Positions 9,544 through 62,507 of a stretch of DNA of 64,000 nt are shown one piece after another. This stretch comes from Escherichia coli (lineage in GTDB: Bacteria; Pseudomonadota; Gammaproteobacteria; Enterobacterales; Enterobacteriaceae). The stretch is taken from assembly GCF_009931435.1 (NCBI RefSeq), contig NZ_CP043414.1; one strand, 5' to 3'. Every line of letters begins with the position of its first letter. Positions within the stretch are counted from its first letter, which is position 1. The notes under the pieces were generated by a model. The model saw only the letters and a list, made by a program, of their open reading frames with translations, did no database searches and was not told the origin of the DNA. The position numbers and the translations under genes are program-made.

Positions 9544-9641
9544 GCCGGATGCGGCGTGAACGCCTTATCCGGCCTACAAGATCGTGCAAATTCAATATAT
9601 TGCATGAGCCATGTAGGCCTGATAAGCGTAGCGCATCAGGC
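9544..9641. repeat. REP doublet (BIME): two inverted REP copies
   Basis: GCCGGATGCGGCGTGAACGCCTTATCCGGCCTAC (9544-9577) and inverted GTAGGCCTGATAAGCGTAGCGCATCAGGC (9613-9641). Confidence 0.85.
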
Positions 9642-11159: not shown

Positions 11160-13513
<2,354 letters not shown>

Positions 13514-13792
13514 TTAATTTACTAAACATGGTTTGGTCAGCATAGCATCATGTTGTGCAATTAAACACCTGCTATTTTAATTTTTGTTACAGAGGCTAAA
13601 CAGACCGAATCACGGCGACGAGAAAACGAGAAGTTACTGGCTGGCGAAGGATTAGGTGGTGAAATAAAAAGGCCGTTGGGTTACTCTTCAGGCAGTTAAA
13701 TGGGCATTTCTACACAGATAATGCGATGTTCAGATTCTGTAGACTTATAATGATAGATAATAATCCGTCTACAGCATGACAAACAAAAACAG

Positions 13793-13915
13793 ATGCGTTA
13801 CGGAACTTTACAAAAACGAGACACTCTAACCCTTTGCTTGCTCAAATTGCAGCTAATGGAGTGGCGTTTCGATAGCGCGTGGAAATTTGGTTTGGGGAGA
13901 CTTTACCTCGGATGA
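13793..13915 (+). CDS. rseD: rpoE leader peptide / upstream ORF, stop overlaps rpoE start (ATGA)
   Basis: Frame +1 relative to rpoE reads MRYGTLQKRDTLTLCLLKLQLMEWRFDSAWKFGLGRLYLG*; TGA at 13913-13915 overlaps rpoE ATG 13912-13914; true start uncertain (upstream in-frame extension lacks an ATG; internal ATG at 13856). Confidence 0.45.
   Translation: MRYGTLQKRDTLTLCLLKLQLMEWRFDSAWKFGLGRLYLG
13802..13829 (+). promoter_or_regulatory. SigmaE-type promoter (-35 GGAACTT, 16-bp spacer, -10 TCTAA) upstream of rpoE
   Basis: Match to the sigmaE consensus GGAACTT-N16-TCTRA; position fits the autoregulated rpoE promoter. Confidence 0.6.
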
Positions 13916-15170: not shown

Positions 15171-16126
15171 TGAAGCAACTTTGGTTTGCCATGTCATTAG
15201 TGACAGGTAGCCTGTTATTCTCTGCTAACGCCTCGGCCACTCCCGCGTCCGGGGCGTTATTACAGCAGATGAACCTGGCCAGTCAGTCACTGAATTACGA
15301 GCTGTCATTCATCAGCATCAATAAACAGGGTGTTGAGTCTCTGCGTTATCGACATGCACGCCTCGATAACCGTCCTCTTGCACAATTGTTGCAAATGGAT
15401 GGCCCGCGCCGGGAAGTGGTACAGCGCGGCAATGAAATCAGCTACTTTGAACCGGGCCTTGAACCGTTCACGCTTAATGGCGATTACATTGTTGATTCTC
15501 TGCCATCGCTCATCTATACCGATTTCAAACGCCTTTCTCCTTACTACGACTTTATCTCCGTGGGACGCACGCGTATTGCTGATCGTCTTTGCGAAGTCAT
15601 TCGCGTGGTGGCCCGTGATGGCACACGCTACAGCTACATCGTGTGGATGGACACCGAATCGAAATTACCGATGCGGGTTGATCTCCTTGATCGCGATGGT
15701 GAAACGCTGGAACAATTTCGCGTGATTGCTTTTAACGTTAATCAGGATATCAGCAGCAGTATGCAGACGCTGGCGAAAGCAAATCTGCCGCCGCTGCTTT
15801 CTGTTCCTGTAGGTGAAAAAGCTAAATTCAGCTGGACGCCAACCTGGTTGCCACAGGGGTTTAGTGAGGTTTCCAGCAGCCGACGTCCGTTACCGACGAT
15901 GGACAACATGCCTATCGAATCACGTCTCTATTCCGACGGATTATTCAGCTTCTCGGTAAACGTTAACCGCGCTACGCCATCGAGCACCGATCAGATGTTG
16001 CGTACCGGACGCAGAACCGTCAGTACAAGCGTACGTGATAACGCCGAAATCACCATTGTCGGCGAACTGCCGCCGCAAACGGCGAAACGCATTGCCGAGA
16101 ATATTAAGTTCGGGGCAGCGCAATGA
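15170..16126 (+). CDS. rseB: Periplasmic regulator of sigmaE, binds RseA
   Basis: 318 aa with signal peptide; start overlaps rseA stop (TAATG). Confidence 0.93.
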   Translation: MKQLWFAMSLVTGSLLFSANASATPASGALLQQMNLASQSLNYELSFISINKQGVESLRYRHARLDNRPLAQLLQMDGPRREVVQRGNEISYFEPGLEPFTLNGDYIVDSLPSLIYTDFKRLSPYYDFISVGRTRIADRLCEVIRVVARDGTRYSYIVWMDTESKLPMRVDLLDRDGETLEQFRVIAFNVNQDISSSMQTLAKANLPPLLSVPVGEKAKFSWTPTWLPQGFSEVSSSRRPLPTMDNMPIESRLYSDGLFSFSVNVNRATPSSTDQMLRTGRRTVSTSVRDNAEITIVGELPPQTAKRIAENIKFGAAQ

Positions 16127-16602
16127 TCAAAGAGTGGGCTACGGTCGTCTCCTGGCAAAACGGGCAGGCGCTGGTCAGTTGTGATGTTAAAGCCTCATGC
16201 AGCAGCTGTGCTTCCCGTGTCGGTTGCGGTAGCCGCGTGCTGAATAAACTTGGCCCACAAACCACGCATACCATTGTCGTACCCTGTGATGAACCGTTAG
16301 TGCCGGGGCAAAAAGTGGAATTAGGAATCACCGAAGGCAGCCTGCTTAGCTCCGCATTACTGGTTTATATGTCGCCGTTGGTGGGATTATTCCTCATCGC
16401 TTCGTTATTTCAGCTACTCTTTGCTTCAGATCTTGCAGCATTATGCGGTGCGATTCTCGGCGGCGTTGGTGGATTCCTGATTGCACGCGGCTACTCGCGA
16501 AAGTTTGCTGCCCGGGCGGAATGGCAACCGATCATCTTAAGCGTGGCATTGCCGCCAGGCCTTGTGCGATTTGAAACATCTTCGGAAGACGCGAGCCAGT
16601 GA
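16123..16602 (+). CDS. rseC: SoxR-reducing system / sigmaE regulatory membrane protein
   Basis: 159 aa; 4-nt overlap with rseB; cysteine cluster CDVKASCSSCASRVGCG then TM helices. Confidence 0.9.
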   Translation: MIKEWATVVSWQNGQALVSCDVKASCSSCASRVGCGSRVLNKLGPQTTHTIVVPCDEPLVPGQKVELGITEGSLLSSALLVYMSPLVGLFLIASLFQLLFASDLAALCGAILGGVGGFLIARGYSRKFAARAEWQPIILSVALPPGLVRFETSSEDASQ

Positions 16603-16799
16603 TTTCACTGGCTTTGTTGCATTTTGCATAACAAATGCGAGGACGTTTCCAGATACCACAATCCATACGGTATGAACATTTCCTCGCCTCAATGTTGTAG
16701 TGTAGAATGCGGCGTTTCTATTAATACAGACGTTAAGCTCAGAACAGCGACTTCTAAAAGCCTGGTTAACCGGGCATTAAGGCACAATAATCATACTTT

Positions 16800-18599
<1,800 letters not shown>

Positions 18600-18614
18600 C
18601 CCTTAGGAGTTGGC

Positions 18615-19589
18615 ATGGCGAATATGTTTGCCCTCATTCTGGTGATTGCCACACTGGTGACGGGCATTTTATGGTGCGTGGATAAATTCTTTTTCGCACC
18701 TAAGCGACGGGAACGTCAGGCAGCGGCTCAAGCGGCTGCTGGTGACTCACTGGATAAAGCAACGCTGAAAAAAGTTGCGCCGAAGCCTGGCTGGCTGGAA
18801 ACCGGGGCTTCTGTTTTTCCGGTACTGGCTATTGTATTGATTGTGCGTTCGTTTATTTATGAACCGTTCCAGATCCCGTCAGGTTCGATGATGCCGACTC
18901 TGTTAATCGGTGACTTTATTCTGGTAGAAAAGTTTGCTTACGGCATTAAAGATCCTATCTACCAGAAAACGCTGATCGAAACCGGTCATCCGAAACGTGG
19001 CGATATCGTGGTCTTTAAATACCCGGAAGATCCAAAGCTTGATTACATCAAGCGTGCGGTGGGTTTACCGGGCGATAAAGTCACTTACGATCCGGTTTCA
19101 AAAGAGCTGACGATTCAGCCGGGATGCAGTTCCGGTCAGGCGTGTGAAAACGCGCTGCCGGTCACCTACTCAAACGTGGAACCGAGCGATTTCGTTCAGA
19201 CCTTCTCGCGCCGTAATGGTGGGGAAGCAACCAGCGGATTCTTTGAAGTGCCGAAAAACGAAACCAAAGAAAATGGAATTCGTCTTTCCGAGCGTAAAGA
19301 GACTCTGGGTGATGTGACGCACCGTATTCTGACAGTGCCGATTGCGCAGGATCAGGTGGGGATGTATTACCAGCAGCCAGGGCAACAACTGGCAACCTGG
19401 ATTGTTCCACCGGGCCAATACTTCATGATGGGTGACAACCGTGACAACAGCGCGGACAGCCGTTACTGGGGCTTTGTGCCGGAAGCGAATTTGGTAGGTC
19501 GGGCAACGGCTATCTGGATGAGTTTCGATAAGCAAGAAGGCGAATGGCCGACTGGTGTGCGCTTAAGTCGTATTGGCGGCATCCATTAA
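18615..19589 (+). CDS. lepB: Signal peptidase I
   Basis: 324 aa; catalytic SGSMMPTL and GDNRDNSADSRYWGFVP boxes; 15 bp after lepA. Confidence 0.96.
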   Translation: MANMFALILVIATLVTGILWCVDKFFFAPKRRERQAAAQAAAGDSLDKATLKKVAPKPGWLETGASVFPVLAIVLIVRSFIYEPFQIPSGSMMPTLLIGDFILVEKFAYGIKDPIYQKTLIETGHPKRGDIVVFKYPEDPKLDYIKRAVGLPGDKVTYDPVSKELTIQPGCSSGQACENALPVTYSNVEPSDFVQTFSRRNGGEATSGFFEVPKNETKENGIRLSERKETLGDVTHRILTVPIAQDQVGMYYQQPGQQLATWIVPPGQYFMMGDNRDNSADSRYWGFVPEANLVGRATAIWMSFDKQEGEWPTGVRLSRIGGIH

Positions 19590-19734
19590 TAGCTTATCTT
19601 CGTTCACGTTGTCGCCGTTATGGCGACAACGTGAATTATTTATGAGATAAATCCCCCGTGGCTAACGACATCCCCCGTCGTTGTGTATAGAATATTCCCC
19701 CGAAGTTTAAGGTTGGCACCTCCAGGTTGCCACG

Positions 19735-19828
19735 GCACACGAAACAGCGTTGGTCCCCATATACCGGTAAACTGAAACTGCAGCGAAGCAGTTAGCAGAG
19801 CCATGTATATCAGGTCTGTTTCGTGTGC
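19735..19828 (+). promoter_or_regulatory. rnc 5' leader long-range stem-loop (candidate RNase III autoregulatory site)
   Basis: Perfect 13-nt inverted repeat GCACACGAAACAG (19735-19747) / CTGTTTCGTGTGC (19816-19828) enclosing smaller stems, ending 34 nt upstream of rnc ATG. Confidence 0.5.
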
Positions 19829-19831
19829 TGA

Positions 19832-21444
<1,613 letters not shown>

Positions 21445-23427: not shown

Positions 23428-23452
23428 AATAATATCGTTCTCTTTAAAAAGT

Positions 23453-23490
23453 AAAACCCCCGAACTGGTAAGGAACGGGGGTTTTACTTT
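23453..23490 (+). terminator. Intrinsic terminator after acpS (palindromic, possibly bidirectional)
   Basis: AAAACCCCCGAACTGGTAAGGAACGGGGGTTTTACTTT: 5-bp G/C stem flanked by A-run and T-run. Confidence 0.65.
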
Positions 23491-23846
23491 ACAACTTTAA
23501 TTTTGTGCAGCACACGATTCCAACAAAAATGATTATGGATCAATTTAGTTATCCTGTACAAGCAACTTGCAATCTTTAGCATAAAAACTCGAGCCTTTAC
23601 GAAGAAATCGATATTGATGAAAAGATTAACGTGACCGCTTTTTGATAAGTACATTAGAATCGGCGTCGTTATTGGATATTTTGCTGTGTTCTACGCCATG
23701 CCACTGAATTCCCCCATTGAAACGAGTGGTGTCGTCAAAGCTCTGGTGTGGAGTGCGGCACTCGATTCCAATAACTCGCACGTTCAGTTTTGGGGAGATG
23801 TAAGGGCTAATCTGAACGGCTGCATTCCTTGTTTAAGGAAAAACGA

Positions 23847-28500: not shown

Positions 28501-31500
28501 ATGATGGAAATTCTGCGTGGTTCGCCTGCATTGTCGGCATTCCGAATCAACAAACTGCTGGCACGTTTTCAGGCTGCCAGGCTCCCGGTTCACAATATTT
28601 ACGCCGAGTATGTCCATTTTGCTGACCTCAATGCGCCGTTAAACGATGATGAGCACGCACAACTTGAACGCCTGCTGAAATATGGCCCGGCACTCGCCAG
28701 CCACGCCCCGCAAGGCAAACTCCTGCTGGTGACTCCGCGTCCTGGTACCATCTCTCCCTGGTCTTCGAAAGCGACCGATATCGCCCATAACTGCGGGCTG
28801 CAACAGGTAAACCGCCTTGAGCGCGGCGTTGCTTACTATATAGAAGCCGGTACGCTGACCCATCAACAATGGCAGCAGGTGACCGCTGAACTGCACGACC
28901 GCATGATGGAAACAGTCTTTTCTGCTTTAGATGATGCAGAGCAGCTGTTTGCACACCATCAACCGACTCCGGTCACCAGCGTTGATTTGCTGGGGCAGGG
29001 CCGTCAGGCGCTAATCGACGCTAACCTGCGTCTTGGCCTGGCACTGGCGGAAGATGAAATTGACTATCTGCAGGATGCGTTCACAAAGCTGGGTCGTAAC
29101 CCGAACGACATCGAGCTGTATATGTTCGCCCAGGCGAATTCTGAGCACTGCCGCCACAAAATTTTTAACGCCGACTGGATTATCGACGGAGAACAACAGC
29201 CGAAATCGCTGTTCAAGATGATCAAAAACACCTTCGAAACCACGCCGGATCACGTTCTTTCTGCTTATAAAGATAACGCCGCCGTAATGGAAGGTTCTGA
29301 AGTGGGCCGCTACTTTGCTGACCACGAAACGGGCCGCTACGATTTCCATCAGGAACCGGCGCACATTCTGATGAAAGTCGAAACCCACAACCACCCAACG
29401 GCGATTTCTCCGTGGCCGGGCGCAGCTACCGGTTCCGGCGGTGAAATCCGCGATGAAGGTGCCACCGGCCGCGGCGCGAAGCCGAAAGCTGGCCTGGTCG
29501 GTTTCTCCGTATCCAACCTGCGTATTCCTGGCTTTGAACAACCGTGGGAAGAAGATTTCGGTAAGCCTGAGCGCATTGTCACCGCGCTGGACATCATGAC
29601 AGAAGGTCCGCTGGGCGGCGCGGCATTTAACAACGAATTTGGTCGTCCGGCACTGAACGGCTACTTCCGTACCTATGAAGAAAAAGTGAACAGCCACAAC
29701 GGCGAAGAGCTGCGCGGGTATCACAAACCGATCATGCTGGCGGGTGGGATCGGCAACATTCGCGCCGATCACGTACAAAAAGGTGAGATCAACGTCGGTG
29801 CGAAACTGGTCGTTCTCGGCGGCCCGGCAATGAACATCGGTCTTGGCGGCGGCGCGGCGTCTTCCATGGCGTCTGGTCAGTCTGATGCCGACCTCGACTT
29901 TGCTTCCGTACAGCGCGATAACCCGGAGATGGAGCGTCGCTGTCAGGAAGTGATCGACCGTTGCTGGCAGCTTGGTGATGCTAACCCAATTCTGTTTATC
30001 CACGACGTCGGCGCAGGCGGTCTTTCTAATGCCATGCCGGAGCTGGTGAGCGACGGCGGACGCGGCGGTAAATTCGAACTGCGCGATATTCTGAGCGACG
30101 AACCGGGCATGAGCCCGCTGGAAATCTGGTGTAACGAATCCCAGGAACGCTACGTGCTGGCGGTTGCTGCCGATCAGTTACCGCTGTTTGACGAACTGTG
30201 TAAGCGTGAACGCGCGCCCTACGCGGTGATTGGTGAAGCGACCGAAGAACTGCATCTTTCTCTGCACGATCGTCATTTTGATAATCAGCCGATCGATCTG
30301 CCGCTGGACGTCCTGCTTGGTAAAACGCCGAAGATGACCCGCGATGTGCAAACGCTGAAAGCGAAAGGCGACGCGCTGGCCCGTGAAGGGATCACCATTG
30401 CAGACGCGGTGAAACGTGTGCTGCATCTGCCGACTGTGGCGGAAAAAACCTTCCTGGTGACCATTGGCGACCGCAGCGTAACCGGTATGGTGGCGCGCGA
30501 TCAGATGGTGGGGCCGTGGCAGGTGCCGGTCGCTAACTGCGCGGTCACTACCGCCAGCCTCGACAGCTACTACGGCGAAGCGATGGCAATTGGCGAACGT
30601 GCGCCGGTTGCACTGCTGGATTTCGCCGCCTCTGCCCGTCTGGCGGTCGGTGAAGCGTTAACCAATATTGCCGCAACGCAGATTGGCGATATCAAACGCA
30701 TTAAACTTTCCGCCAACTGGATGGCGGCGGCAGGCCACCCTGGTGAAGATGCAGGCCTGTATGAAGCCGTTAAAGCGGTGGGCGAAGAGCTTTGTCCGGC
30801 GCTGGGCCTGACGATTCCGGTGGGTAAAGACTCCATGTCGATGAAAACCCGCTGGCAGGAAGGTAGCGAAGAGCGCGAAATGACCTCGCCGCTTTCGCTG
30901 GTGATTTCTGCATTTGCCCGCGTGGAAGATGTACGTCACACCATCACGCCGCAGCTTTCTACCGAAGATAACGCACTGCTGCTGATTGATTTAGGCAAAG
31001 GCAATAACGCGCTGGGCGCAACGGCGCTGGCGCAGGTTTATCGTCAGCTTGGCGACAAGCCTGCTGATGTGCGCGACTTCGCGCAACTGAAAGGTTTCTA
31101 TGACGCGATTCAGGCACTGGTTGCACAGCGTAAGCTGCTCGCGTACCACGACCGCTCTGACGGTGGCCTGCTGGTGACGCTGGCGGAAATGGCGTTTGCC
31201 GGTCATTGCGGTATTGAAGCGGATATCGCCACTCTGGGTGACGATCGCCTGGCGGCGTTGTTTAACGAAGAACTGGGTGCGGTGATTCAGGTTCGAGCCG
31301 CTGACCGTGAAGCAGTTGAAGCGGTACTGGCACAGCATGGGCTTGCTGATTGCGTCCATTATGTTGGGCAGGCGGTTTCCGGTGACCGTTTTGTAATTAC
31401 CGCCAACGGGCAGACTGTATTCAGCGAAAGCCGCACCACGTTGCGTGTCTGGTGGGCAGAAACTACCTGGCAGATGCAGCGCCTGCGTGACAATCCGGAG

Positions 31501-32388
31501 TGTGCCGATCAGGAACATCAGGCGAAATCTAACGACGCCGATCCGGGCCTGAATGTGAAACTGTCGTTTGATATCAACGAAGATGTGGCAGCACCGTATA
31601 TTGCCACCGGTGCGCGTCCGAAAGTTGCCGTGCTGCGTGAGCAGGGGGTGAACTCGCATGTTGAAATGGCGGCAGCTTTCCACCGTGCAGGCTTCGATGC
31701 AATCGATGTGCATATGAGCGACCTGCTGGCTGGACGCACGGGCCTGGAGGATTTCCACGCTCTGGTAGCGTGCGGCGGATTCTCCTACGGTGACGTGCTG
31801 GGGGCTGGTGAAGGTTGGGCGAAGTCTATCCTGTTCAATGACCGTGTACACGATGAGTTTGCAACCTTCTTCCACCGTCCGCAAACGCTGGCGCTGGGGG
31901 TATGTAACGGTTGCCAGATGATGTCTAACCTACGCGAACTGATCCCAGGTAGCGAGTTGTGGCCACGTTTCGTGCGTAACACCTCCGATCGCTTTGAAGC
32001 GCGTTTCAGCCTGGTAGAAGTGACCCAAAGCCCGTCTCTGCTGTTGCAAGGGATGGTGGGTTCGCAGATGCCGATTGCTGTCTCTCACGGCGAAGGGCGC
32101 GTGGAAGTGCGCGATGCGGCGCATCTGGCGGCACTGGAAAGCAAAGGGCTGGTGGCACTGCGCTATGTCGATAACTTTGGTAAAGTCACCGAAACCTACC
32201 CGGCTAACCCGAACGGTTCTCCGAATGGTATTACGGCGGTCACGACTGAAAGTGGTCGAGTCACCATTATGATGCCGCACCCGGAACGTGTTTTCCGTAC
32301 TGTCAGTAACTCCTGGTATCCGGAAAACTGGGGCGAGGATGGCCCATGGATGCGTATTTTCCGCAATGCGCGTAAGCAGTTGGGGTAA
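28501..32388 (+). CDS. purL: Phosphoribosylformylglycinamidine (FGAM) synthase, large single-chain form
   Basis: 1295 aa; [21 protein letters not shown]-terminus; C-terminal glutaminase domain GVCNGCQMM. Confidence 0.96.
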
Positions 32389-32411
32389 GTCGTAAAACTA
32401 TTGGTTTTGCT

Positions 32412-32452
32412 GCCCGGATGTGGCATTCACGCCGCATCCGGCATTAAACGCC
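32412..32452. repeat. REP-like palindrome downstream of purL
   Basis: GCCCGGATGTGGCATTCACGCCGCATCCGGC; resembles a degenerate single REP. Confidence 0.4.
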
Positions 32453-32465
32453 GACCACTATCATA

Positions 32466-32491
32466 AGCTCCCAGCTCCGGGAGCTTTTTTT
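32466..32491 (+). terminator. Intrinsic terminator of purL
   Basis: AGCTCCC-agctcc-GGGAGCT hairpin followed by TTTTTT. Confidence 0.75.
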
Positions 32492-32492
32492 G

Positions 32493-32510
32493 TGTCTGTA
32501 AATCACGACA
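32493..32510 (+). promoter_or_regulatory. GlrR-type activator binding site 1 (TGTC-N10-GACA)
   Basis: TGTCTGTAAATCACGACA upstream of the glmY sigma54 promoter. Confidence 0.55.
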
Positions 32511-32525
32511 ATGGGTGGTTTACCG

Positions 32526-32543
32526 TGTCGCTTTTTGGCGACA
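32526..32543 (+). promoter_or_regulatory. GlrR-type activator binding site 2 (TGTC-N10-GACA)
   Basis: TGTCGCTTTTTGGCGACA. Confidence 0.6.
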
Positions 32544-32588
32544 TTTAATTGATTGATTTTATTTGGATCTAATAAATTTATCTTAAGG

Positions 32589-32606
32589 TGTCTCTTTTTA
32601 GCGACA
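32589..32606 (+). promoter_or_regulatory. GlrR-type activator binding site 3 (TGTC-N10-GACA)
   Basis: TGTCTCTTTTTAGCGACA; three similarly spaced repeats are typical of a sigma54 enhancer. Confidence 0.6.
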
Positions 32607-32695
32607 CAATGGCTGATTTACAGCCAAATAGCGAAGAAGTCATAAATCCATCAAAACAACGTATAATCAGTACGTTACCAAACTATTTTATTTAT

Positions 32696-32711
32696 TGGCA
32701 CAGTTACTGCA
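32696..32711 (+). promoter_or_regulatory. Sigma54 promoter (-24 TGGCAC / -12 CTGCA) of glmY, overlapping a sigma70 -10-like CATAAT
   Basis: TGGCACagttaCTGCAT with correct GG-N10-GC spacing; predicted start about 32722-32724. Confidence 0.65.
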
Positions 32712-32722
32712 TAATAGTCATC

Positions 32723-32906
32723 AGTGGCTCATTCACCGACTTATGTCAGCCCCTTCGGGACGTGCTACATAAAATTCGAATGACGCACAACAAGGTGCCT
32801 GCCGTCCAACTTCTGATATCAGCTTAGCTATATCAACCCTCGGGCGAAACGTCGAGTTAGGCACCGCCTTATTCCATAACAAAGCCGGGTCATTCCCGGC
32901 TTTGTT
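32723..32906 (+). ncRNA. glmY: Small regulatory RNA GlmY (controls glmS via GlmZ/RapZ)
   Basis: Starts AGTGGCTCATTCACCGACTTATGTCAGCCCCTTCGGGACG 12 nt after the sigma54 -12 element; ends with terminator AAAGCCGGGTCATTCCCGGCTTTGTTGT; ~184 nt; upstream of glrK on the same strand. Confidence 0.8.
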
Positions 32907-32964
32907 GTATCTGAACTTCCCCTCGGTTAGCATCAGGCTATTCGCGTCTGACGAGAGTAACACC

Positions 32965-34392
32965 TTGAAACGCTGGCCCGTTTTTCCCCGCTCATTACGA
33001 CAACTGGTAATGCTGGCATTTTTGCTGATTCTGCTACCCCTGTTGGTGCTGGCATGGCAAGCCTGGCAAAGCCTGAATGCGCTTAGCGATCAGGCGGCGC
33101 TGGTTAACCGTACTACGCTTATTGATGCCCGGCGCAGTGAAGCGATGACCAACGCGGCGCTGGAGATGGAGCGTAGCTACCGTCAGTATTGCGTGCTGGA
33201 TGACCCAACCCTGGCGAAGGTTTATCAAAGCCAGCGCAAGCGTTATAGCGAAATGCTCGATGCCCACGCAGGCGTACTGCCGGACGATAAACTTTACCAG
33301 GCATTGCGTCAGGACTTGAACAATCTGGCTCAACTTCAGTGTAACAACAGCGGTCCCGATGCTGCCGCCGCCGCGCGTCTGGAAGCCTTTGCCAGCGCCA
33401 ATACCGAAATGGTACAGGCCACGCGCACAGTGGTGTTCTCTCGTGGGCAGCAGCTTCAGCGTGAAATCGCCGAACGTGGGCAATATTTTGGTTGGCAATC
33501 GCTGGTGTTATTTCTGGTAAGTCTGGTGATGGTACTGCTCTTCACGCGGATGATTATCGGCCCGGTAAAAAATATTGAACGGATGATCAACCGTCTGGGG
33601 GAAGGGCGTTCTCTGGGCAATAGCGTTTCGTTCAGTGGCCCGAGTGAGTTACGCTCGGTTGGGCAACGTATTCTTTGGTTAAGTGAGCGCCTGTCATGGC
33701 TGGAATCCCAGCGCCATCAATTCTTAAGACATTTATCTCATGAATTAAAAACCCCGCTGGCGAGTATGCGCGAGGGCACTGAATTACTGGCTGACCAGGT
33801 TGTCGGGCCGCTTACGCCCGAGCAAAAAGAGGTGGTGAGCATCCTTGATAGCAGCAGCCGCAATTTGCAAAAACTGATCGAACAACTGCTTGATTACAAC
33901 CGTAAACAGGCGGACGGCGCGGTGGAACTGGAGAGTGTAGAGTTGGCACCGCTGGTGGAAATGGTGGTTTCTGCTCATAGCCTGCCCGCACGGGCTAAAA
34001 TGATGCATACCGACGTCGATCTCAAAGCAACTGCTTGCCTGGCGGAGCCAATGCTGCTGATGAGCGTACTGGATAATCTTTACTCCAATGCGGTGCACTA
34101 CGGGGCTGAATCCGGTAACATTTGCCTTCGCAGCAGTTTACATGGCGCGCGGGTTTATATTGATGTCATCAATACAGGCACACCCATTCCGCAAGAGGAA
34201 CGCGCCATGATCTTCGAACCCTTTTTTCAGGGAAGCCACCAGCGAAAAGGGGCGGTGAAGGGCAGCGGTCTGGGATTAAGCATTGCCAGGGATTGTATTC
34301 GCCGTATGCAGGGGGAACTGTATCTGGTCGACGAGAGCGGGCAAGAGGTTTGCTTCCGCATTGAATTACCGTCGTCGAAAAACACGAAATAA
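32965..34392 (+). CDS. glrK: Sensor histidine kinase of the GlrK/GlrR (QseE/QseF) two-component system
   Basis: ORF track starts at TTG 32902 inside the glmY terminator; conserved N-terminus (M)KRWPVFPRSLRQLV begins at TTG 32965 (475 aa); HAMP, H-box HELKTPLASM, HATPase. Confidence 0.88.
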   Translation: MKRWPVFPRSLRQLVMLAFLLILLPLLVLAWQAWQSLNALSDQAALVNRTTLIDARRSEAMTNAALEMERSYRQYCVLDDPTLAKVYQSQRKRYSEMLDAHAGVLPDDKLYQALRQDLNNLAQLQCNNSGPDAAAAARLEAFASANTEMVQATRTVVFSRGQQLQREIAERGQYFGWQSLVLFLVSLVMVLLFTRMIIGPVKNIERMINRLGEGRSLGNSVSFSGPSELRSVGQRILWLSERLSWLESQRHQFLRHLSHELKTPLASMREGTELLADQVVGPLTPEQKEVVSILDSSSRNLQKLIEQLLDYNRKQADGAVELESVELAPLVEMVVSAHSLPARAKMMHTDVDLKATACLAEPMLLMSVLDNLYSNAVHYGAESGNICLRSSLHGARVYIDVINTGTPIPQEERAMIFEPFFQGSHQRKGAVKGSGLGLSIARDCIRRMQGELYLVDESGQEVCFRIELPSSKNTK

Positions 34393-34556
34393 TGTTAAGA
34401 GCCTATCCCATCAGGCTATTTTATTTGCCAGTTTGGCCTCGTGCAGTGCTCGAAATCCTTACGTACTACGTGTACGCTCCGGTTTCTCCGCGCTGTCCAT
34501 GTCCAAACTGCCTGCAACAATTACGCCCACTGGGATAGGTTTTAAGTCTGGTGAAT

Positions 34557-35270
34557 ATGCGACACATTTTTCAACGATTATTGCCCCGACGGCTATGGCT
34601 GGCAGGGCTGCCATGTCTGGCATTGCTGGGTTGCGTGCAGAGTCACAATAAGCCAGCTATTGATGCGCCAGCAGAAGAAAAAATTCCGGTTTATCAACTG
34701 GCTGACTATCTTTCTACTGAATGCAGCGACATCTGGGCACTGCAAGGTAAGTCAACCGAAACCAATCCGCTTTACTGGCTGCGGGCGATGGATTGTGCTG
34801 AACGTTTAATGCCTGCGCAGTCGCGTCAGCAAGCCCGCCAATATGACGACGGCAGCTGGCAAAATATCTTCAAACAAGGGATTTTGCTCGCTGACGCCAA
34901 AATTACGCCTTATGAGCGCCGCCAGCTGGTCGCGCGCATTGATGCGTTAAGTACCGAGATCCCGGCACAGGTTCGCCCACTGTATCAACTCTGGCGCGAA
35001 GGTCAGGCGCTGCAACTGCAACTGGCGGAAGAGCGCCAACGCTACAGCAAACTCCAGCAGTCCAGCGACAGCGAACTGGATACTTTACGCCAGCAACATC
35101 ACGTTCTACAGCAGCAACTGGAACTCACTACCCGCAAGCTGGAAAACCTGACCGATATTGAACGCCAGCTCTCGACTCGCAAACCGGCTGGCAATTTCTC
35201 GCCGGATACGCCGCACGAGAGTGAAAAGCCCGCGCCATCTACCCATGAGGTCACTCCTGATGAGCCATAA
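34557..35270 (+). CDS. qseG: Outer-membrane lipoprotein required for GlrK signalling
   Basis: Start at ATG 34557 (MRHIFQRLLPRRLWLAGLPCLALLGCVQ, 237 aa); lipobox LLGC; coiled-coil Q-rich C-terminus. Confidence 0.8.
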   Translation: MRHIFQRLLPRRLWLAGLPCLALLGCVQSHNKPAIDAPAEEKIPVYQLADYLSTECSDIWALQGKSTETNPLYWLRAMDCAERLMPAQSRQQARQYDDGSWQNIFKQGILLADAKITPYERRQLVARIDALSTEIPAQVRPLYQLWREGQALQLQLAEERQRYSKLQQSSDSELDTLRQQHHVLQQQLELTTRKLENLTDIERQLSTRKPAGNFSPDTPHESEKPAPSTHEVTPDEP

Positions 35271-36594
35271 ACCTGCGCATTTATTACTGGTCGATGACGA
35301 TCCAGGATTGCTGAAACTGCTTGGTCTGCGTCTGACCAGCGAAGGTTATAGCGTGGTTACGGCGGAAAGTGGAGCTGAAGGATTGCGGATACTGAATCGT
35401 GAAAAAGTAGATTTAGTCATCAGCGACCTGCGGATGGATGAAATGGATGGTATGCAACTGTTTGCTGAAATCCAGAAAGTGCAGCCAGGTATGCCAGTAA
35501 TCATCCTCACCGCGCATGGCTCCATTCCCGATGCGGTTGCCGCGACACAGCAGGGCGTGTTCAGTTTCCTCACCAAGCCCGTCGATAAAGACGCGCTGTA
35601 TCAGGCAATTGATGATGCGCTGGAACAATCCGCGCCAACCACCGACGAACGCTGGCGCGAGGCGATTGTCACCCGCAGCCCGCTGATGCTGCGTTTGCTG
35701 GAACAGGCGAGGCTGGTGGCGCAGTCAGATGTTAGCGTTTTGATTAACGGTCAGAGCGGTACCGGGAAAGAGATTTTTGCCCAGGCGATCCACAACGCCA
35801 GCCCGCGCAACAGCAAGCCGTTTATTGCTATTAACTGTGGCGCATTGCCCGAGCAATTACTGGAGTCCGAGCTGTTTGGTCATGCGCGCGGTGCGTTTAC
35901 TGGCGCTGTCAGCAATCGCGAAGGTTTATTCCAGGCGGCGGAAGGCGGTACGCTGTTTCTCGATGAGATTGGCGACATGCCCGCACCGTTGCAGGTCAAA
36001 CTGCTACGCGTGTTGCAGGAGCGCAAAGTGCGCCCGCTGGGCAGCAACCGCGATATTGATATCGACGTGCGGATTATTTCCGCCACTCACCGTGACCTGC
36101 CAAAGGCGATGGCGCGCGGGGAATTCCGTGAAGATCTCTACTATCGCCTCAACGTTGTCAGTCTGAAAATTCCGGCATTGGCGGAGCGCACAGAAGACAT
36201 TCCGCTACTGGCAAACCACTTATTGCGCCAGGCGGCAGAGCGACATAAACCGTTTGTCCGCGCATTCTCCACCGATGCAATGAAACGCCTGATGACCGCG
36301 AGCTGGCCGGGCAACGTGCGCCAGTTGGTCAACGTGATTGAACAGTGCGTGGCGCTAACATCATCTCCGGTGATTAGTGATGCGTTAGTCGAGCAGGCGC
36401 TGGAGGGCGAAAATACGGCTCTGCCAACCTTTGTTGAGGCGCGTAATCAGTTTGAACTCAACTACTTGCGTAAGCTGCTGCAAATCACCAAAGGTAATGT
36501 CACCCACGCGGCGAGAATGGCGGGGCGCAACCGGACAGAATTTTATAAACTGCTTTCCCGACACGAGCTGGATGCAAACGATTTCAAGGAATGA
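35260..36594 (+). CDS. glrR: Sigma54-dependent response regulator (NtrC family)
   Basis: Start at ATG 35260 ([18 protein letters not shown], 444 aa) overlapping qseG end by 11 nt; receiver domain, AAA+ sigma54-interaction domain ([14 protein letters not shown]), C-terminal HTH. Confidence 0.9.
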
Positions 36595-62271: not shown

Positions 62272-62400
62272 ACCGTCCTGTTTCGTGTTGCATCTGCGTT
62301 GACTGCACATACTCACTCCGGTCACTTACTTATGTAAGCTCCCGGAGATTCGTAAGTTTGTCAACTTGCTGAAACCCGAAACAGTTAGGTTAAAGATAAC
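62272..62400. repeat. ERIC-like imperfect palindrome in the iscR-iscS spacer
   Basis: Core CACTCCGGTCACTTACTTATGTAAGCTCCCGGAGATTC aligns with the ERIC central region and with the reverse complement of the element at 21447-21575; flanking arms partly complementary. Confidence 0.6.
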
Positions 62401-62507
62401 AAGATATTAGAATCAGGCCGGGGCGTATCGCGCTCCGTAAACACGGTCGTACATCCAGCCGGTAGCCTGGTTCCTTGCATTGAGTGATGTACGGAGTTTA
62501 TAGAGCA

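What the first reader, a model, noticed from the sequence alone, without database searches (positions are those of the whole stretch)
32389..32964. Complete GlmY sRNA module: purL terminator, three GlrR-type inverted repeats, dual promoter, GlmY, then glrK
The purL-glrK spacer is densely organised: a REP-like palindrome and intrinsic terminator, three TGTC-N10-GACA repeats (32493, 32526, 32589), a sigma54 -24/-12 promoter overlapping a sigma70 -10-like CATAAT, and a ~184-nt RNA gene ending in a terminator hairpin 58 bp before the TTG start of glrK. The ORF track calls glrK from 32902, inside the glmY terminator, which would mis-annotate both genes. The module is textbook; the point is that it is absent from any ORF-based view.
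Basis: partly seen in the sequence, partly recalled or inferred. Interest (0 to 1): 0.4.

Follow-up and report, generated by a model that had tools for sequence, protein, structure and literature searches.

The report
Textbook GlmY small-RNA gene module

Summary
Confirmed, and already known. Rfam's GlmY model (RF00128) matches window 32723-32870 end to end at 145 bits against a threshold of 33. By gap-free alignment to K-12 b4441, the 184-nt gene runs 32723-32906.

The only three TGTC-N10-GACA motifs in the 64-kb window lie at 32493, 32526 and 32589, which is -230, -197 and -134 from the start. In 116 other Enterobacterales loci, 98 keep three such sites at the same spacing and 115 keep the sigma54 motif. 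The 17-mer TTGGCACAGTTACTGCA matches the K-12 sigma54 ChIP-seq site exactly and overlaps CATAAT.

glrK starts at TTG 32965 (475 aa), not at 32902. RefSeq uses 32965, and 97 of 99 orthologues have TTG or GTG there. 24 have no upstream alternative, and the mapped K-12 glrK transcription start lies downstream of 32902. The 496-aa form does occur in a minority of GenBank records.

The only local peculiarities are an intact REP, which K-12 has lost through an 18-bp deletion, and a host lineage about 95-96% identical to mainstream E. coli. No new biology.

The parts
28501..32388 (+). purL coding sequence, the upstream neighbour. Its stop codon ends at 32388.
   Evidence: ORF list. RefSeq annotation of the 100%-identical genome.
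32411..32443 (.). REP (repetitive extragenic palindrome) hairpin. It is intact here, whereas K-12 carries an 18-bp deletion of its top.
   Evidence: Exact REP core on the minus strand at 32426-32442, with 6 copies in the window against 0.3 expected. Fold. Alignment to K-12. A full REP is also present in another Escherichia locus, L033.
32465..32491 (+). Intrinsic terminator after purL: 8-bp stem AAGCTCCC/GGGAGCTT followed by a T-run.
   Evidence: Terminator scan. Fold with z = -6.1.
32493..32510 (.). GlrR/QseF activator binding site 1, TGTCTGTAAATCACGACA, at -230 from the GlmY start.
   Evidence: Consensus from PMC3045617.
32526..32543 (.). GlrR/QseF activator binding site 2, TGTCGCTTTTTGGCGACA, at -197.
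32546..32558 (-). IHF consensus site AATCAATCAATTA, a perfect match to WATCARNNNNTTR, between binding sites 2 and 3.
   Evidence: PMC3045617 reports two IHF sites flanking binding site 3.
32589..32606 (.). GlrR/QseF activator binding site 3, TGTCTCTTTTTAGCGACA, at -134.
32665..32677 (+). IHF consensus site AATCAGTACGTTA (perfect match), between binding site 3 and the promoter. It is identical in K-12.
32695..32711 (+). Sigma54 promoter TTGGCACAGTTACTGCA. GG is at 32697-98 and GC at 32709-10.
   Evidence: The 17-mer is identical to K-12 sigma54 ChIP-seq site OS24 for glmY (PMC4591121). TGGCAY-N5-NTGCW is kept in 115 of 116 orthologous loci.
32710..32715 (+). Sigma70 -10 hexamer CATAAT, overlapping the sigma54 -12 element. 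Both promoters use the same start site.
   Evidence: Sequence. PMC3045617 names CATAAT as the characterised -10. It is kept in 49 of 115 orthologues, the Escherichia/Salmonella/Citrobacter/Enterobacter group. The -35 is weak, and the generic promoter scan did not flag this promoter.
32723..32906 (+). glmY, primary transcript of 184 nt. 32723-32870 corresponds to the 148-nt processed, active form.
   Evidence: RF00128 at 145.3 bits over model positions 1-163 of 163. Gap-free alignment to K-12 b4441. Fold with z = -4.95. Lengths of 184 and 148 nt from PMC4152352.
32878..32906 (+). glmY intrinsic terminator: a 12-bp stem AACAAAGCCGGG/CCCGGCUUUGUU with a 5-nt loop.
   Evidence: Fold. Conserved in close genera.
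32905..32940 (+). Weak sigma70 promoter of glrK-qseG-glrR. Putative -35 is TTGTAT (32905-10) and putative -10 is TAGCAT (32928-33). The transcription start is near 32940.
   Evidence: [quoted passage not shown] The spacer is 100% identical to K-12. The hexamer assignment is my inference from blocks conserved across genera.
32965..34392 (+). glrK (qseE), 475 aa, with a TTG start preceded by GAGAG at 32953-57.
   Evidence: RefSeq start positions. Orthologue analysis. HAMP, HisKA and HATPase_c domains.
34557..35270 (+). qseG (yfhG), the lipoprotein needed for kinase activity.
   Evidence: NCBIfam equivalog NF007997 at 357.7 bits, cut-off 234. Annotation.
35260..36594 (+). glrR (qseF), the sigma54-dependent response regulator that binds the three upstream sites.
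   Evidence: NCBIfam equivalog NF011695 at 980.6 bits, cut-off 763. Response_reg and Sigma54_activat domains.

Best explanation
This is the canonical enterobacterial glmY locus.

What the sequence shows:
- purL transcription ends at a REP hairpin plus an intrinsic terminator.
- Immediately downstream, three TGTC-N10-GACA sites lie at -230, -197 and -134.
- Two IHF sites and a sigma54 promoter follow.
- A weak sigma70 promoter whose -10 (CATAAT) overlaps the sigma54 -12 element fires from the same nucleotide, 32723.
- The 184-nt GlmY RNA ends at its own hairpin terminator, 32878-32906.
- The 58-bp spacer then carries a separate weak sigma70 promoter and the ribosome-binding site for glrK, which starts at TTG 32965.

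Mechanism taken from the K-12 literature and inferred for this strain by near-identity:
- Phosphorylated GlrR (QseF), encoded 2.3 kb downstream, binds the three sites.
- IHF bends the DNA so that GlrR can activate the sigma54 promoter.
- GlmY is trimmed to 148 nt.
- The trimmed form sequesters the RNase-E adaptor RapZ, which protects GlmZ. GlmZ then activates glmS translation when glucosamine-6-phosphate is scarce.
- RapZ free of glucosamine-6-phosphate stimulates GlrK/GlrR, which closes the loop.
For: - RNA identity: RF00128 at 145.3 bits over the full model. It is 98% identical to K-12 glmY with no indels. 40 orthologues share a consensus fold with compensatory changes in 5 pairs.
- Synteny: purL-glmY-glrK-qseG-glrR-glnB, as in K-12.
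- Upstream sites: the only three TGTC-N10-GACA in 64 kb. 98 of 116 orthologous loci have three sites at 31-33 and 62-64 bp spacing, and many sit at the same -230/-197/-134 offsets.
- Sigma54 motif: identical to the K-12 ChIP-seq site and kept in 115 of 116 loci.
- IHF: two perfect consensus sites flank the third binding site, as published.
- glrK start: RefSeq uses 32965. 97 of 99 orthologues have TTG or GTG at the homologous codon. 24 have no upstream in-frame alternative, and 46 have an in-frame stop after the glmY terminator. Frameshifting indels occur in the spacer of Salmonella and Enterobacter. The mapped K-12 glrK transcription start is 25 bp upstream of the short start.
- Mechanism: PMC3045617, PMC4152352, PMC6075780 and PMC7073468.
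Against: - Nothing in the sequence contradicts this explanation.
- All functional steps (GlrR and IHF binding, transcription start, processing, RapZ sequestration) are transferred from K-12 experiments. None was measured in this strain.
- The host lineage is about 4-5% diverged from K-12. The region between the third binding site and the promoter is only 88% identical.
- The generic sigma70 scan found no promoter above its threshold. Both sigma70 promoters therefore rest on the literature plus weak hexamers.
Confidence: 0.97

Rival explanations
1. glrK really starts at TTG 32902 and encodes a 496-aa kinase. The coding region would then overlap the 3' end of glmY.
For: The frame is open from 32902. 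It stays open in close relatives such as Escherichia and some Citrobacter. The 496-aa form is deposited in GenBank as 'YfhK' on 22 contigs for the K-12-type sequence and 2 contigs for the window-type sequence.
Against: - The 475-aa form is on at least 1000 contigs (K-12 type) and 702 contigs (window type).
- Curated K-12 and PGAP annotation both use the short start.
- In 46 of 99 orthologues an in-frame stop lies after the glmY terminator. In 24 the homologous TTG or GTG is the only possible start.
- One-nucleotide indels occur in the spacer of Salmonella and Enterobacter.
- The 21-aa extension matches no protein family.
- 32902 sits in a terminator stem with no Shine-Dalgarno sequence.
- The mapped glrK transcription start is 25 bp upstream of the short start, which is downstream of 32902.
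Confidence: 0.02
2. glmY and glrK-qseG-glrR form one operon here. On this reading the glmY hairpin is a leaky terminator or processing site rather than a full stop, as reported for Proteus mirabilis.
For: PMC8745638 reports glmY-qseE-qseG-qseF as an operon in P. mirabilis (abstract). The terminator's T-tract is interrupted (TTTGTTGT), and the generic terminator scan did not flag it.
Against: [quoted passage not shown] The terminator differs from K-12 only by one loop nucleotide, and the spacer is identical. The hairpin has a strong 12-bp stem.
Confidence: 0.07
3. The RNA is the paralogue GlmZ or a decayed copy, and the three inverted repeats are a chance cluster or sites for another regulator.
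For: GlmY and GlmZ belong to the same Rfam clan. 5 of 100 shuffles gave three or more TGTC-N10-GACA matches somewhere in 64 kb.
Against: - Rfam's clan competition keeps GlmY, at 145 bits.
- Synteny with glrK is specific to glmY (PMC3045617).
- The three sites lie within 114 bp and keep their offsets across about 45 genera.
- The cognate regulator GlrR is encoded downstream.
Confidence: 0.01

Closest known systems
E. coli K-12 glmY (b4441) with its GlrR/IHF/sigma54 plus sigma70 control region (Reichenbach 2009; Gopel 2011, PMC3045617)
   Same: - Same neighbouring genes.
- Same 184-nt RNA, with 4 substitutions and no indels.
- The same three TGTC-N10-GACA sites at -230, -197 and -134.
- The same sigma54 17-mer and the same CATAAT.
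- The same downstream IHF site.
- An identical 58-bp spacer and TTG start for glrK.
   Different: - The window keeps an intact REP hairpin after purL, where K-12 has an 18-bp deletion and one T fewer in the terminator T-run.
- There are 11 substitutions between and within the spacers of the binding sites, and 11 more between the third site and the promoter.
- Two substitutions lie just upstream of the start: AGTCATC here against AGTAACC in K-12.
- None of these touches a consensus position.
GlmZ (Rfam RF00083, same clan CL00011)
   Same: A homologous sRNA with the same overall fold. It also binds RapZ.
   Different: GlmZ lies next to the hemCDXY operon. In Escherichia it has only a sigma70 promoter and no GlrR sites (PMC3045617). 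It base-pairs with glmS, whereas GlmY acts as a decoy. The window RNA scores as GlmY and sits next to glrK.
rpoE P2, the other known QseF/GlrR-dependent sigma54 promoter (PMC6358824, PMC6075780)
   Same: It uses the same activator and the same overlapping sigma54/sigma70 design. It lies in the same window, upstream of rpoE near 13.5-13.9 kb.
   Different: No perfect TGTC-N10-GACA is found there. Only two looser TGT-N12-ACA motifs occur, at 13511 and 13585. I did not analyse it further.

Membership tests
GlmY sRNA (Rfam RF00128) | Covariance-model score above the family's gathering threshold over the full model | tested here: met
   145.3 bits against 33, model positions 1-163 of 163, E = 2e-33.
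GlmY sRNA (Rfam RF00128) | Located directly upstream of glrK-qseG(yfhG)-glrR | tested here: met
   In 104 of 105 orthologous loci with enough downstream sequence, a GlrK homologue follows glmY.
GlmY sRNA (Rfam RF00128) | 184-nt primary transcript with an intrinsic terminator, processed to about 148 nt | tested here: inconclusive
   Length and terminator are met by gap-free homology to b4441 and by folding. Processing cannot be shown from sequence. The Rfam match spans exactly 148 nt (PMC4152352).
GlmY sRNA (Rfam RF00128) | Binds RapZ as a decoy and does not base-pair with glmS | not testable with these tools
   This needs binding or genetic assays. It is inferred from 98% identity to K-12 GlmY and from PMC4152352 and PMC7073468.
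GlrR/QseF-activated sigma54 promoter | -24 GG and -12 GC elements (TGGCAC-N5-TTGCA-like) at the correct distance from the transcription start | tested here: met
   TGGCACAGTTACTGCA at 32696-32711 with 1 mismatch. It is identical to the K-12 ChIP-seq site. GC lies at -14/-13 from 32723.
GlrR/QseF-activated sigma54 promoter | Three TGTC-N10-GACA activator sites more than 100 bp upstream | tested here: met
GlrR/QseF-activated sigma54 promoter | IHF sites (WATCARNNNNTTR) flanking the third activator site | tested here: met
   Two matches with 0 mismatches, at 32546-58 (minus strand) and 32665-77 (plus strand). Actual binding was not tested.
GlrR/QseF-activated sigma54 promoter | Cognate enhancer-binding protein with receiver, sigma54-interaction and DNA-binding modules | tested here: met
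   GlrR equivalog NF011695 at 980.6 bits against 763. Pfam Response_reg plus Sigma54_activat.
Overlapping sigma70 promoter of glmY | CATAAT -10 overlapping the -12 element, with the same start site | tested here: met
   CATAAT at 32710-15. PMC3045617 names this hexamer. The -35 is weak (TTTATT-like), so the generic scan gave no hit. Activity was not tested.
REP element | Imperfect palindrome matching the GCCGGATGCGGCGTGAA core, extragenic, with multiple copies per genome | tested here: met
   Exact core at 32426-42 on the minus strand. 6 matches in the window against 0.3 expected. Hairpin.

The most novel reading that the evidence does not exclude
The 58-bp glmY-glrK spacer might be constrained by more than a weak promoter. 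It is 100% identical to K-12, while the flanking genes differ by 3-4%. Its conserved -35-like TTGTAT overlaps the last bases of the glmY terminator.

The overlap could couple glmY termination or RNA-polymerase traffic to initiation at the glrK promoter. That would add a transcriptional-interference layer to the GlmY-RapZ-GlrK feedback loop.

The identity alone is weak evidence. At 4.3% divergence about 2.5 differences are expected in 58 bp, so zero differences has a probability of about 0.08.
Probability: 0.07. Interest if true: 0.3.

Novelty: already known. Interest (0 to 1): 0.1.

Why it matters
It matters mainly as an annotation check.

- **glmY is missing from standard annotation.** It is absent from the PGAP annotation of the genome that is 100% identical over the spacer and two flanking regions.
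- **A naive longest-ORF call is wrong here.** It lengthens glrK by 21 codons into the glmY terminator. That error is present in a minority of GenBank records.

The biology itself is thoroughly characterised in E. coli K-12: cell-envelope precursor homeostasis through GlmY, GlmZ, RapZ and glmS, driven by the GlrK/GlrR system. This sequence adds nothing to it. It only shows that the module is intact in a divergent Escherichia lineage.

Tried and rejected
- **Generic promoter scan.** It found no sigma70 promoter in 32300-33100. Both known sigma70 promoters here have weak -35 hexamers, so this is a limit of the scan's sensitivity and not evidence against them.
- **Generic terminator scan.** It found the purL terminator but missed the glmY terminator. 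Part of the T-tract pairs into the stem, and the remaining tail (GTTGTATC) has too few T's. Folding shows a 12-bp hairpin.
- **Sigma54 consensus search.** With up to 2 mismatches it gave 28 hits against 29 expected, so it is uninformative on its own. Only the 1-mismatch hit at 32696 matters, because of its position, the ChIP-seq identity and its conservation.
- **Primary paper.** Reichenbach 2009 (PMID 19843219) is not held. Its results are cited through PMC3045617, PMC6075780 and PMC7073468.
- **Overlapping short ORFs.** I considered 32588-32827 (+, 79 aa) and 32733-32963 (-, 76 aa) as possible genes. I rejected them without further testing, because they overlap a conserved RNA gene and its promoter.

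Full report
**Observation**

- purL is the ORF 28501-32388.
- An exact REP core (GCCGGATGCGGCGTGAA) lies on the minus strand at 32426-32442, inside a hairpin at 32411-32443. The window holds six REP-core matches against 0.3 expected.
- An intrinsic terminator follows at 32465-32486 plus a T-run.
- TGTC-N10-GACA occurs exactly three times in the whole 64-kb window, at 32493, 32526 and 32589. Shuffles average 0.84 matches per 64 kb, so three inside 114 bp is far beyond chance.
- TGGCAC-N5-CTGCA lies at 32696-32711. CATAAT at 32710-32715 overlaps its -12 element.

**Identity of the RNA**

- Rfam's GlmY model RF00128 matches 32723-32870 on the + strand at 145.3 bits. The gathering score is 33, and the match covers model positions 1-163 of 163.
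- It is the only hit in the region and survives clan competition with GlmZ.
- K-12 annotates glmY (b4441) as a 184-nt ncRNA, 58 bp from the glrK start.
- The window aligns to it without indels, with 4 substitutions in 184 nt. This gives 32723-32906 and the same 58-bp spacer.
- The RNA folds well, with z = -4.95. It has the three expected stem-loop regions and a 12-bp terminator hairpin at 32878-32906.
- The literature gives 184 nt for the primary transcript and 148 nt for the active processed form (PMC4152352). The Rfam match spans exactly 148 nt.

**Comparative test**

A glmY-specific DNA pattern retrieved 120 loci from roughly 45 genera of Enterobacterales.

- Of the 116 loci with at least 350 nt upstream, 98 carry three TGTC-N10-GACA sites, each with at most one mismatch, spaced 31-33 and 62-64 bp apart.
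- 115 of the 116 carry TGGCAY-N5-NTGCW at the promoter position.
- In Citrobacter, Enterobacter, Kluyvera, Salmonella and related genera the sites sit at -230, -197 and -134, exactly as in the window.
- CATAAT is kept in 49 loci, the enteric core group. Göpel et al. reported the same.
- An alignment of 40 GlmY orthologues gives the expected consensus helices, with compensatory changes in five pairs.

**Published architecture**

- PMC3045617 describes, for E. coli glmY, three GlrR sites TGTCN10GACA more than 100 bp upstream.
- It also describes overlapping sigma54 and sigma70 promoters that start at the same nucleotide, with CATAAT as the sigma70 -10.
- Two IHF-like sites (WATCARNNNNTTR) flank the third GlrR site. 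IHF is essential for the sigma54 promoter.
- The window has two perfect IHF consensus matches in those positions: 32546-32558 on the minus strand and 32665-32677 on the plus strand.
- The 17-mer TTGGCACAGTTACTGCA at 32695-32711 is identical to K-12 sigma54 ChIP-seq site OS24, assigned to glmY (PMC4591121).
- GlrR, QseG and GlrK are all encoded downstream. GlrR matches its equivalog at 980.6 bits against a cut-off of 763 and QseG at 357.7 against 234. GlrK has HAMP, HisKA and HATPase domains.

**The glrK start**

- RefSeq starts the gene at the position equal to window 32965. This holds both in the identical strain annotated by PGAP and in K-12.
- Among 99 orthologous loci whose GlrK aligns from residue 1, the homologous codon is TTG in 77 and GTG in 20.
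- In 24 loci there is no other in-frame start before the upstream stop.
- In 46 loci an in-frame stop lies after the glmY terminator.
- The spacers of Salmonella and Enterobacter carry 1-nt indels relative to the window. The conserved blocks show no codon periodicity.
- The 21-residue extension matches no family.
[quoted passage not shown] Transcription starts 25 bp upstream of the start codon, and read-through from glmY is virtually absent (PMC6075780).
- The spacer is 100% identical to K-12, so the start should be near 32940, downstream of 32902.
- My inferred hexamers are TTGTAT (32905-10) and TAGCAT (32928-33), 17 bp apart. Both are conserved across close genera.
The 496-aa form exists in public records ('YfhK', for example EIG70376.1). 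It is on 22 contigs for the K-12-type sequence and 2 for the window-type. The 475-aa forms are on at least 1000 and 702 contigs.
- PGAP annotates nothing in the purL-glrK gap of the identical genome.

**Mechanism**

This comes from the literature and is inferred for this strain.

1. RapZ free of glucosamine-6-phosphate stimulates GlrK autophosphorylation.
2. Phosphorylated GlrR, helped by IHF, activates the sigma54 promoter.
3. Processed GlmY sequesters RapZ, which spares GlmZ from RNase E.
4. GlmZ activates glmS.
5. GlmY-bound RapZ no longer stimulates GlrK, which gives negative feedback (PMC7073468; PMC4152352).

**What is particular to this window**

- The host is a divergent Escherichia lineage. 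purL, lepA-lepB and glrK-glrR are only about 95-96% identical to nearly all of 5,425 complete E. coli genomes. purL and glrK-glrR are 100% identical to strain 2020CK-00188, which was not among the listed rows for lepA-lepB, where the best match was strain N96 at 99.5%.
- Against that background glmY is 98% identical to K-12 and the glmY-glrK spacer 100%. The inter-site DNA is 88-90% identical, and every consensus position is intact.
- The REP after purL is intact here and in another Escherichia locus. K-12 and apparently most E. coli carry an 18-bp deletion, which would explain why 5,047 genomes match the spacer at only 90-95%.
- None of this changes the interpretation.

**Verdict**

The module is a known, fully characterised system. 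Interest is low.

Noticed in passing
window 28501-32388, 16900-19600, 33000-36500: The window comes from a divergent Escherichia lineage. purL, lepA-lepB and glrK-glrR are about 95-96% identical to nearly all 5,425 complete E. coli genomes. purL and glrK-glrR are 100% identical to strain 2020CK-00188. Only 17 genomes are at least 99% identical for lepAB. This looks like a cryptic-clade-like 'E. coli'.
   Followed up: partly
window 32411-32443: The REP hairpin after purL is intact here and in locus L033. K-12 has lost its top through an 18-bp deletion. 5,047 of 5,425 genomes match the spacer at only 90-95%, which this indel and the substitutions would explain, though I did not check those genomes directly.
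   Followed up: partly
window 13505-13911 (nadB-rpoE intergenic): The other known QseF/GlrR-dependent sigma54 promoter (rpoE P2) should lie in this same window. There is no perfect TGTC-N10-GACA there. Only looser TGT-N12-ACA motifs occur, at 13511 and 13585, with a GG-N10-GC at 13863.
   Followed up: partly
window 9578-9620, 16087-16918, 19702-19916, 23448-23524, 62397-62506: Other Rfam matches above their gathering scores: ES036 sRNA (+), AsrC antisense to rseC (-), rncO (+), ohsC antitoxin RNA (-) and the iscRS stability element (+). There are no tRNA genes in the window.
   Followed up: no
orthologous loci L003-L122, glrK start: The glrK start codon is non-ATG almost everywhere: 77 TTG and 20 GTG among 99 loci. 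In 35 loci, mostly Serratia, Yersinia, Cedecea, Hafnia, Rahnella and Photorhabdus, an ATG lies exactly 3 codons upstream and may be the real start there. A conserved weak start fits the very low QseE abundance reported in PMC6075780.
   Followed up: partly
L120, L113, L107, L109, L117, L099, L043, L092, L039 and others: The distance from the glmY start to the glrK start is 242-256 nt in most Enterobacteriaceae. It is 350-430 nt in some Enterobacter, Raoultella, Buttiauxella and Tenebrionibacter, and 480-690 nt in Serratia and Yersinia. This implies extra DNA inserted between glmY and glrK in those lineages.
   Followed up: no
L006 (Escherichia albertii) upstream of glmY: E. albertii keeps glmY and the spacer almost identical to the window, but its upstream activating region is very different. 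It resembles Citrobacter more than E. coli. No site is a perfect TGTC-N10-GACA, and only two are within one mismatch.
   Followed up: no
public protein records: The 496-aa N-terminally extended GlrK ('putative sensor-like histidine kinase YfhK', e.g. EIG70376.1, KGM60250.1) persists in GenBank. It overlaps the glmY terminator by 5 nt.
   Followed up: yes
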